Origin: Eledone cirrhosa
Lineage: Eukaryota
Length of the DNA: 64,000 nucleotides
Assembly: GCA_964016885.1 (NCBI GenBank)
Contig: OZ024748.1
Location: 13,640,001-13,704,000 of the forward strand
Direction: 5' to 3'
A program made the translations under genes and the position numbers. This document shows, piece after piece, positions 8,585 to 51,324 of this stretch. Position 1 is the first letter of the stretch. Each line of letters begins with the position of its first letter. A model generated the notes under the pieces. The model saw nothing but the letters and a program-made list of their open reading frames with translations, searched no databases and had not been told where the DNA came from.

Positions 8585-8622
8585 TTCTTCTGTTGAAGGA
8601 TTAGTGTCCGAAACGTTAAGGC
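8585..8622 (+). ncRNA. Degenerate minimal hammerhead motif (same type as 3485)
   Basis: ctgttga-a-ggat-tagt-gtcc-gaaacgtta; core A6 mutated. Confidence 0.4.
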
Positions 8623-8939
8623 CCTCTTCCTGCCATATCAAGCGTTAACCTAATATATTCCTTCCATATACTGTACCGATTGTGTTGTTATTTCTGTTTA
8701 CCTTTTACACACACACACACACACATACACATACACACATATATATATATATATATTATAATCCGATGAAATACTTTGAAAGCGTAAAACATATATGACG
8801 ACCTTGCAGATGCAGAGTCAGGTTCGATCTGTAACATTATTATGTAAATAAATTGTGTTTTAATGCATCACTGATTCATTGTTATCTGTAATAACATACT
8901 CTGCTCTGCGCGAGCATCGGACTCATTCATTGCAACCAT

Positions 8940-8992
<53 letters not shown>

Positions 8993-9138
8993 ATACTTTG
9001 GGAGGGTCATGTTGTCAATAAGAAACACACGCACCAGTTGCTTTCACTTCAATTTATTATAATAAATTTATAAATTTAGGAATTTATAAATTTCCGGTTG
9101 GTTGGTTGGTTCCACAACCAGATGGTTGTTTATATATT

Positions 9139-9181
9139 GTCAAAGTTCTTTCGTCACACATTCTGTGACCTCTTCAGTGAC
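9139..9181 (-). ncRNA. Minimal type I hammerhead ribozyme
   Basis: Minus: gtca-CTGAAGA-g-gtcaca-gaatg-tgtgac-GAAA-g-aa-c-TT-tgac. Confidence 0.7.
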
Positions 9182-9284
9182 TGGGGATTCTTTTCTTTGT
9201 TTTTGTGCCTCTCCTTTGAAACAAGATGGCATAGGACAGAACAAAGGAGAGGCACAAAAACAGAAAACAAAGAAAAGAATCCCA

Positions 9285-9327
9285 GTCACTGAAGAGGTCA
9301 CATACTGTGTGACGAAAGAACTTTGAC
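9285..9327 (+). ncRNA. Minimal type I hammerhead ribozyme
   Basis: gtca-CTGAAGA-g-gtcaca-tactg-tgtgac-GAAA-g-aa-c-TT-tgac; helix I 4 bp, helix II 6 bp, helix III 2 bp. Confidence 0.7.
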
Positions 9328-9528
9328 AATATATAAACAACCATCTGGTTGTGGAACCAACCAACCGGAAATTTATAAATTCCTAAATTTATAAATTTAT
9401 AATAAATTTAAGTGAAAGCAACTGATGCGTGTGTTTCTTATTGGCAACATGACCCTCCCAAAGTATAACAATATCGGTTTCAACACACGTTTTCAGATAA
9501 AGAATCTTGCTAAAGAAATTCAGAAACG

Positions 9529-9652
<124 letters not shown>

Positions 9653-38350: not shown

Positions 38351-38403
38351 CGGCGATGAATTAGTTTTGTGAGGTTTTTGATATGAAATCGTGTGTCGAA
38401 ACA

Positions 38404-38489
38404 AATATTGTTATACTTGGGTAAAACCAACCAAACAGTGAGTGCGCTCTGTTATTAATTCTGGCAAGGTTATGACCCTCCCCAAGTAT

Positions 38490-38496
<7 letters not shown>
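38404..38496 (+). mobile_element. Short terminal piece related to the 8985-9474 family, with 17-bp inverted arm
   Basis: atattgttatacttggg...atgaccctccccaagtataacaatat + (TA)n; another piece at 50691-50780 (minus). Confidence 0.75.
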
Positions 38497-38560
<64 letters not shown>

Positions 38561-50647: not shown

Positions 50648-50698
<51 letters not shown>

Positions 50699-51324
50699 AT
50701 ACTTGGGGAGGGTCATATTTGTGTAATATTTATTGCCAGAATTAATAACAGAACACACTCACTGTATGGTATGTTTTCGCTTTTTTTTTTTTTTTAATAT
50801 ATATATAATAGTACAGCATATTCGCAGTTCGATCAGCAGCCAAGCAAACGAATGCCTTCAGCAGTGCAGCCAAGCACTCGACGAGGAATAGACCTCAGAG
50901 AGTAACATACAGTTTAAAGGGCTTTGCAAATTGAAAATAGCGACCGCTAATTCAGCCGCGTGCGTGATCTGTAGCAACGAAAGAACTGACTAGTGAGAAA
51001 AGGAAATACACACACACACACATATACATATATATATATATACATATAAAAATATACATACATACATACATATATGCACCTATCTGTATATATAACATAC
51101 CTGGACCGTCACTTGGAAATTGCTGAATATCCAAGTGAGGTTTCTGCAAATCCAAAATCAACTAAATCCGTTTCGGGTGTATACAAGTTCGGGAAGATCG
51201 AACAGTGGAATTTACTTTCTCAACAGGCTTTTGTTCTAACACAAAACCCGGTGTGGAGCACATGTTATTCCAAAGGGAGGTAACCCCGGTTTCTGGCGGA
51301 CAATTAAAAAATTAAGGTCAATGG

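What the first reader, a model, noticed from the sequence alone, without database searches (positions are those of the whole stretch)
8985..9474. 490-bp foldback with a minimal hammerhead on each strand: dsRNA versus ribozyme switch
Either transcript carries an antisense arm first and an HHR arm second, so a ~234-bp hairpin should sequester the ribozyme and form an ADAR/Dicer substrate. Coleoid cephalopods are known for heavy A-to-I editing. It looks like a MITE, but relatives at 38404 and 50691 have only one full end plus TA, which argues for retro-type insertion. The 2-bp helix III is the minimal type known to need dimerisation.
Basis: partly seen in the sequence, partly recalled or inferred. 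Interest (0 to 1): 0.7.

Follow-up and report, generated by a model that had tools for sequence, protein, structure and literature searches.

The report
Mirror-image stump of Penelope retrotransposon
This hairpin is real but ordinary: it is two cut-short copies of the end of a Penelope-like jumping gene joined head to head in an AT repeat, each carrying that gene's small hammerhead ribozyme motif, and it likely records how the element inserts rather than working as a ribozyme switch.

Summary
The foldback and both minimal hammerhead motifs are real, but the element runs 60 bases further right (to about 9534) than reported. The arm is the pseudo-LTR (pLTR) of a ~4-kb Penelope-like retroelement (PLE) with thousands of candidate copies in this genome. 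Longer copies run into a GIY-YIG endonuclease and a reverse transcriptase whose predicted fold is closest to telomerase. Inverted 5'-truncated arm, one-sided tail, (TA)n target and opposite-strand hammerheads are all published PLE features. In 56 two-armed insertions, arms range from 46 to 3879 bp, so this is not a MITE. The tail is on exactly one end in 52 (54 after reading the exceptions). Both arms share rare variants (2.0/kb against 0.11 by chance). The tailed arm is longer in 23 and shorter in 25, which favours two separate primings from one source over snap-back copying. A read-through RNA would bury the hammerhead by about 60 kcal/mol: a trap, not a switch. Transcription and editing are untested. 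The scan has reported this design before, in this genome and others.

The parts
8949..8984 (.). (AT)n microsatellite, left target flank; any target-site duplication is unreadable
   Evidence: both flanks carry an AT run of 8 nt or more in 44 of 56 two-armed insertions
8985..9218 (-). Inverted, 5'-truncated pLTR copy (234 nt) ending at the short (tail-less) 3' end
   Evidence: L088
9139..9181 (-). Minimal type I hammerhead motif of the left arm; predicted cut after 9143
9219..9474 (+). Direct, 5'-truncated pLTR copy (256 nt); its unmatched first 23 nt (9219-9241) form the hairpin loop; junction with at most 1 nt of microhomology
9285..9327 (+). Minimal type I hammerhead motif of the right arm (CUGAAGA 9289-9295, GAAA 9314-9317, CUU 9321-9323; predicted cut after 9323)
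   Evidence: helix II has two compensatory pairs in the sister family
9449..9534 (+). First ~29 codons of the PLE open reading frame (ATG at 9449); the same frame stays open for the 110 codons printed in five full-length copies
9475..9534 (+). 60-nt PLE tail, on the right end only; in full-length copies it continues into the ORF
9535..9608 (.). (AT)n microsatellite, right target flank
38357..38497 (.). Tiny head-to-head insertion of a sister PLE family: inverted end with its own tail (38357-38421) plus a direct tail-less end, in (AT)n
50691..50790 (-). Single tail-less end of the same sister family beside (AT)n; right boundary approximate

Best explanation
The 550-bp element (8985-9534) is a head-to-head pair of 5'-truncated pLTR ends of an endonuclease-positive Penelope-like retrotransposon in an (AT)n run, likely made in one insertion event. 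[quoted passage not shown] INFERRED: the endonuclease nicks both strands of the self-complementary (AT)n target; each 3'-OH primes reverse transcription on RNA from the same source, one at the distal start (tailed arm) and one at the proximal start (tail-less arm); both cDNAs stop early and are end-joined at their truncated 5' ends. The hammerheads are passengers of the pLTR, selected in the parent lineage and probably inert here. The hairpin is a by-product that would be a generic dsRNA substrate only if host transcription reads through it.
For: Parent: copies extend into GIY-YIG (Pfam E 2e-5, above the curated cut-off) and RT coding sequence (1167-aa open frame in L086). The AlphaFold model (pLDDT 93) is closest to telomerase RTs (Foldseek E 4e-8; VIA Z 13.4, rmsd 3.7 A over 360 residues). 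8 of 30 loci show arm plus tail upstream of the ORF; pLTR-to-pLTR spacing is 3966-4075 bp in six copies. Family size: 2527 first-look candidates, 40 scored. Anatomy: 56 unique two-armed insertions among 177 loci; tail on one end in 52, on both in 2, on neither in 2 by script; two of the four exceptions are one-sided on reading; p 1e-11 for 52/56 if the ends were independent at 0.5. Arms 46-3879 bp; tailed arm longer in 23, shorter in 25, within 5 nt in 4. Same subfamily in 29 of 30 pairs. 33 rare variants shared by both arms in 16,452 positions, 2.0/kb against a mean of 0.11 and a maximum of 0.94 in 300 re-pairings. Literature: same layout in PMC8557442 Fig. 2 and PMC3846280; an Anolis PLE protein cuts and extends both strands and starts at two adjacent sites inside the ORF start that define the tail (PMC11167929); dual minimal hammerheads 100-700 bp apart on opposite strands (PMC4209133).
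Against: The insertion steps are inferred from end products; nothing was assayed. Shared variants could also come from gene conversion between the arms after insertion, or from two RNAs of one source locus. One insertion has two tails (L074), one has none (L101), and 1 of 30 pairs mixes subfamilies. The window's exact junction recurs in 4 of 30 loci, which fits truncation hot spots plus selection by the query but is also what a re-mobilised palindrome would give. The sample is the best-scoring hits of five searches, not random, and insertions with eroded or out-of-range ends were dropped (for example L104, L107). RVT_1 is not hit on the family's own 640-aa frame and is below cut-off on relatives. 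Both start sites end in ATAT, matching the target, whereas the Anolis element started without homology.
Confidence: 0.9

Rival explanations
1. The locus is a selected RNA device that toggles between a long dsRNA (ADAR/Dicer substrate) and an active hammerhead.
For: The hairpin is very stable; both hammerhead cores are intact here, as in 95 of 134 copies caught by a flanking pattern; young inverted repeats are the main A-to-I targets in animals (PMC9989829 passages).
Against: Forcing the hammerhead fold costs 61-63 kcal/mol. The antisense arm is transcribed first on both strands. Single minimal hammerheads did not cleave in vitro (PMC4209133), and the two here are on opposite strands. Arm divergence is the family average. 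At least 55 other insertions have the same build with scattered junctions. Genomic copies show no A>G excess (446 A>G, 240 T>C; A is 0.68 of A+T).
Confidence: 0.03
2. The second arm arises by snap-back: one cDNA (or an antisense RNA, as proposed in PMC3846280) folds back and copies itself.
For: Both arms share a parent; junction gaps lie within 5 nt in 45 of 56; in 23 of 48 unequal pairs the tailed arm is the longer one, as snap-back requires.
Against: In 25 of 48 unequal pairs (9 by more than 100 nt) the tail-less arm reaches further 5' than the tailed arm. Each arm then holds sequence that the other lacks, so neither can be a copy of the other. This holds unless a longer intermediate was trimmed afterwards.
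Confidence: 0.12
3. The 550-bp palindrome is itself a non-autonomous element (MITE-like or retrozyme-like) that is copied as a unit.
For: The exact junction recurs in L089, L090 and L114; all 40 scored hits of the junction query match on both strands.
Against: In L089 and L114 the tail sits on the other arm than in the window. Junctions scatter over -217 to -267 even in this query-biased set, and arms span 46-3879 bp. The ends are unequal, and the partner enzyme is an RT, not a transposase. Retrozymes are tandem, same-strand repeats (bioRxiv 10.64898/2026.07.22.740005).
Confidence: 0.05
4. The inversion at this locus is an assembly artefact.
For: No independent read or contig was seen to bridge this junction.
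Against: The arms differ by 5 substitutions and 4 indels and have unequal ends, whereas a folded-back read would give identical arms; the build matches 55 other loci and the published PLE layout.
Confidence: 0.02

Closest known systems
Insertions of endonuclease-positive Penelope-like elements with inverted pLTR and one-sided tail (Arkhipova et al. 2013, PMC3846280; Craig et al. 2021, PMC8557442 Fig. 2)
   Same: Head-to-head inverted 5'-truncated copy, tail at one end, pLTR that contains the first codons of the ORF, (TA)n target, hammerhead in the pLTR, single ORF with RT and C-terminal GIY-YIG.
   Different: Tail of 60 nt rather than 30-40; this copy keeps no RT or endonuclease coding sequence; the one-sidedness is nearly strict here (52-54 of 56), where the papers say 'often' or 'optionally'.
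Minimal hammerheads of metazoan PLEs (Cervera and de la Pena 2014, PMC4209133)
   Same: Helix I of 4 bp, helix II of 6-7 bp, extra base before helix II, G10.1-C11.1 pair, 2-bp helix III; opposite-strand pairs a few hundred bases apart are already reported.
   Different: Loop 3 (AA) is not self-complementary, so a dimeric helix III would carry two A-A mismatches (self-duplex -3.6 kcal/mol against -10.1 for the motif at 8590); the site is CUU, a weak triplet (recalled).
Nematis clade of PLEs (as shown in PMC8557442 Figs S1, S2)
   Same: Short CX4CxxC linker directly before a C-terminal GIY-YIG domain with the CCHH residues.
   Different: RT motif A-to-B spacing is 126-132 aa in 102 of 103 scored proteins, against about 60 in the Nematis, Neptune and Penelope rows of Fig. 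S1. No tree was built.
Poseidon element of Anolis carolinensis, PAc (Frangieh et al. 2024, PMC11167929)
   Same: Two reverse-transcription start sites inside the start of the ORF define the tail; both target strands are cut and extended; AT-rich target.
   Different: Different clade; here both sites end in ATAT like the target, and the hammerhead lies 126 nt upstream of the ATG rather than across it.
MITEs and non-LTR retrozymes
   Same: Short, non-coding, many copies; long inverted ends (MITE) or type I hammerhead (retrozyme).
   Different: No fixed length, unequal ends, RT partner; hammerheads inverted rather than in tandem.

Membership tests
EN+ Penelope-like element | Single ORF with telomerase-related RT | tested here: met
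   1167-aa open frame in L086; invariant Q and DD in 118 aligned proteins; model closest to telomerase RTs; similar to a neighbouring canonical PLE RT, E 3e-14. Applies to the parent family; the window copy lacks it.
EN+ Penelope-like element | GIY-YIG endonuclease | tested here: met
   Pfam PF01541 E 2.3e-5, 25 bits against cut-off 22.6, C-terminal to the RT
EN+ Penelope-like element | pLTR-ORF-pLTR partial tandems, pLTR overlapping the ORF start | tested here: met
   8 of 30 loci; spacing 3966-4075 bp; ATG 26 nt before the short end
EN+ Penelope-like element | Inverted 5'-truncated copy and one-sided tail | tested here: met
   52 of 56 by script, 54 on reading
EN+ Penelope-like element | Hammerhead motif in the pLTR | tested here: met
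   covarying helix II in the sister family
EN+ Penelope-like element | Retained spliceosomal intron | not tested
   no transcript data
Nematis clade | Short CX2-5CxxC linker and CCHH in a C-terminal endonuclease | tested here: met
   searches compared by eye with Fig. S2 of PMC8557442
Nematis clade | No insertion between RT motifs A and B | tested here: not met
   spacing 128 aa, median 129 in 103 proteins, against about 60 in Fig. S1
Nematis clade | Groups with Nematis on an RT tree | not tested
Minimal type I hammerhead ribozyme | Core CUGANGA / GAAA / NUH with helices I and II | tested here: met
Minimal type I hammerhead ribozyme | Palindromic helix III and loop 3 for dimer formation | tested here: inconclusive
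   positions 15.1/16.1 and 15.2/16.2 are complementary, the AA loop is not
Minimal type I hammerhead ribozyme | Self-cleavage | not testable with these tools
   needs in vitro transcription
MITE | Fixed length with equal terminal inverted repeats | tested here: not met
   arms 46-3879 bp, tail on one end
MITE | Transposase-coding partner | tested here: not met
   longer copies code for RT and GIY-YIG
Non-LTR retrozyme | Tandem same-strand units each with a hammerhead | tested here: not met
   hammerheads are inverted, one per strand; definition

The most novel reading that the evidence does not exclude
This family's insertions are a genome-scale record that a Penelope complex primes both cut DNA strands on RNA from one source, with each strand assigned a different one of two start sites 60 nt apart. 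That would replace the published self-priming explanation of PLE foldbacks and fit a dimeric enzyme with unequal halves. It makes the open question of how PLEs integrate testable with a young, abundant family whose RT also carries a ~70-aa insertion at the telomerase IFD position.
Probability: 0.45. Interest if true: 0.5.

Novelty: new member of a known kind. Interest (0 to 1): 0.24.

Why it matters
As a locus it matters little: it is one of many stumps of a transposon family in a likely octopus genome (the closest named protein is from Octopus vulgaris, 70% identical). The family has two uses. Its end statistics (strict one-sided tail, one parent, tail side unrelated to arm length) discriminate between models of Penelope integration, which the field calls unresolved (PMC8557442). 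And each two-armed insertion creates a near-perfect hairpin in one step, so these families could supply many of the repeat-derived dsRNAs edited in cephalopods; that is untested.

Tried and rejected
Rfam at gathering thresholds: no match in the window. Expression: no RNA holder listed, so transcription, editing and small RNAs were not tested. Read support: Logan contigs of X1-X4 and a second lay with X1, X21, X22, X5 showed family depth and both family ends but no listed record bridging this junction; the tables were cut and the reference is itself inverted, so this is uninformative. Host gene: 83 stop-free stretches from the window and 20 kb upstream gave one weak Pfam hit below cut-off; the left flank is another repeat; no transcription context could be assigned. 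Fossil A-to-I editing: three A>G changes shared by both arms of L114 vanished when gap-adjacent columns were excluded; A>G made up 4 of 33 shared and 38 of 347 private changes (Fisher p 0.77); no hyper-edited copy among 228 segments. An early idea that the two arms come from different subfamilies was rejected (29 of 30 pairs match). Sequence search of solved structures with the single protein found nothing, and the profile found one weak RT hit. The hammerhead region is only slightly less variable than the rest of the arm among young copies (1.1% against 1.6%; biased by a query centred there), so it was not used as evidence. Whether the 70-aa RT insertion resembles the telomerase IFD in fold was not tested.

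Full report
Observation. The window holds an inverted repeat with arms 8985-9218 and 9242-9474 between two (AT)n runs. The arms differ by 5 substitutions and 4 indels. As RNA the 490 nt fold into one hairpin at -355 kcal/mol; none of 100 shuffles comes close. Each arm carries a minimal type I hammerhead motif on its sense strand, 9285-9327 (+) and 9181-9139 (-), with a 2-bp helix III and a CUU site. Rfam reports no family in the window.

What the arm is. A search of the own genome with the right arm gave 2527 first-look candidates, of which 40 were scored and 30 fetched. All share the same 3' end next to (AT)n and differ in how far they reach 5'. [quoted passage not shown] Pfam's RVT_1 did not hit the family's own 640-aa frame and was below cut-off in relatives. 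The protein has 295 relatives at E 1e-10 or better, the best named one from Octopus vulgaris at 70% identity. A model built on 118 sequences (pLDDT 93) is closest to telomerase RTs, the sister group of PLE RTs. In 8 of 30 loci found with the 5' part of the ORF, the arm and the 60-nt extension lie upstream of the ORF, giving pLTR-ORF-pLTR units of 3966-4075 bp in six copies. The ATG is inside the arm (window 9449), and both outer ends fall within the first 29 codons. The arm is therefore the pLTR and the extension is the tail of a Penelope-like element.

The pieces at 38357-38497 and 50691 belong to a sister family. Its copies hit the same protein by tblastn in 4 of 16 loci, have their own tail, and carry a hammerhead in 5 of 16 loci. 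That hammerhead keeps CUGANGA and GAAAGAACUU while two pairs of helix II change on both sides. This is the best evidence that the motif was selected in the parent lineage. The piece at 38357-38497 is itself head-to-head with a one-sided tail.

Anatomy across insertions. Among 177 loci from five searches and two fetches, a script found 63 head-to-head pairs with both 3' ends in view, 56 after removing duplicates. Pairs with eroded or out-of-range ends were not counted, and the loci are best-scoring hits, not a random sample. The tail is on exactly one end in 52, on both in 2 and on neither in 2. On reading, L079 has a broken tail on one end and L082 is a full-length inverted unit with a tail-less outer end, leaving L074 (two tails) and L101 (none). 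Arms span 46-3879 bp; 44 of 56 have AT runs on both sides; junction gaps are within 5 nt in 45 of 56. The two arms belong to the same subfamily in 29 of 30 short foldbacks and share 33 rare variants in 16,452 positions, 2.0/kb against 0.11 (maximum 0.94) in 300 random re-pairings. They differ privately at 2.1% of sites; the window copy, at 2.2%, is typical. The tailed arm is the longer in 23 pairs, the shorter in 25 and within 5 nt in 4.

How it most likely works. These end products fit one event with two primings. The endonuclease would nick both strands of the self-complementary (AT)n target. Each free end would prime cDNA on RNA from one source, one at the distal and one at the proximal start site. 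The two truncated cDNAs would then be end-joined. Snap-back copying of one cDNA cannot give the 25 pairs in which each arm has sequence the other lacks, unless a longer intermediate was trimmed. Gene conversion or two RNAs from one locus could also explain the shared variants. The steps are inferred; their support is the in vitro work on the Anolis element, which cuts and extends both strands and starts at two adjacent sites in the ORF start (PMC11167929).

The switch idea. In a read-through transcript of either strand the antisense arm comes first, and forcing the hammerhead fold costs 61 and 63 kcal/mol. That is a trap, not a two-state device. The hammerheads lie on opposite strands, so one RNA carries only one. 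Single minimal hammerheads did not cleave in vitro and dimers cleaved weakly (PMC4209133). The AA loop of helix III is not self-complementary. Genomic copies show no A>G excess (446 A>G, 240 T>C among 228 segments, with A at 0.68 of A+T), but this tests only editing copied back into DNA. Young inverted repeats are the main A-to-I targets in animals (PMC9989829), so editing is likely if the locus is transcribed, as for any such repeat. Transcription at this locus remains open.

What is known. The inverted 5'-truncated copy, the 30-40-bp tail at one end and the (TA)n preference are described in PMC8557442 and PMC3846280; the latter explains the head-to-head form by self-priming. Minimal hammerheads in pLTRs, including pairs 100-700 bp apart on opposite strands, are in PMC4209133. 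The element meets the PLE features I could test and fails those of MITEs and retrozymes. Its short zinc-finger linker resembles Nematis, but RT motifs A and B are 126-132 aa apart in 102 of 103 scored proteins against about 60 in the published alignment, so I do not file it in that clade. Seven library searches listed no paper on this family, on counts of tail sidedness, or on a C-terminal-endonuclease PLE with this insertion. Subscription journals and Repbase are not covered.

What I saw of each paper. PMC8557442: passages, sections 11 and 12, a supplement search and one part with Figs S1-S2. PMC4209133: parts 1-2 of 4 of the text. PMC11167929: passages and the second half of the main text. 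PMC3846280 and PMC9989829: passages. bioRxiv 10.64898/2026.07.22.740005: part 1 of 5; its supplements were not seen and may list octopus families. That CUU is a weak cleavage triplet is recalled.

Earlier notes of this scan. Read after my counts were done, they report the same design in this genome and in others, several with the same two-priming idea, and one reports the RT insertion. They are unchecked and are not used as support. They do show that the pattern is common.

Verdict. A real feature, a new family of a known kind, interest 0.24. The useful residue is the end statistics, which bear on how Penelope elements integrate.

Noticed in passing
L035:1029-2948 (-), protein P0001 residues ~185-255; L086:1829-5329 (+): The family's RT has about 70 extra, partly conserved residues between motifs A and B, at the telomerase IFD position, shared by 102 of 103 scored relatives, although PMC8557442 says canonical C-terminal-endonuclease PLEs lack an IFD. 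An earlier scan note reports the same.
   Followed up: partly
window 8590-8622 (+), 3515-3485 (-), 36089-36058 (-): Three further minimal hammerhead-like motifs of other repeat families; the one at 8590 has a variant CUGUUGA core and a self-complementary helix III region.
   Followed up: partly
window 8765-8920: An older repeat (662 first-look candidates, 70-90% identity, some inverted pairs) with a degenerate hammerhead-like core lies directly left of the insertion.
   Followed up: partly
window 9470-9476 and 9530-9534; L070 full-length copy: In full-length copies both outer ends fall at the same motif, AATAT then CG, 60 nt apart; the sister family keeps the spacing roughly but not the motif.
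   Followed up: no
L088-L117 junctions: 5' truncation points cluster at a few positions (-233, -238, -250, -253, -256, -266 from the short end); the window's exact junction recurs in L089, L090 and L114, with the tail on the other arm in two of them.
   Followed up: partly
L086:1829-5329 (+), N-terminal third: The ORF holds a long Asn/Thr/His-rich low-complexity stretch before the RT, like the N-rich inserts in rotifer Penelope ORFs.
   Followed up: no
L082 (G000:C1:172489500-172498346): A 7.4-kb head-to-head insertion made of a full-length inverted unit with its pLTR and a 3.1-kb direct copy.
   Followed up: no
L035:4365-5759 (-): A second, Neptune-like PLE (465-aa frame, GIY-YIG above cut-off, short A-B spacing) lies beside a copy of this family.
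   Followed up: partly
window 9064-9093 and 9369-9398: Each arm has a 30-nt AT-rich internal near-palindrome whose length varies among copies.
   Followed up: no
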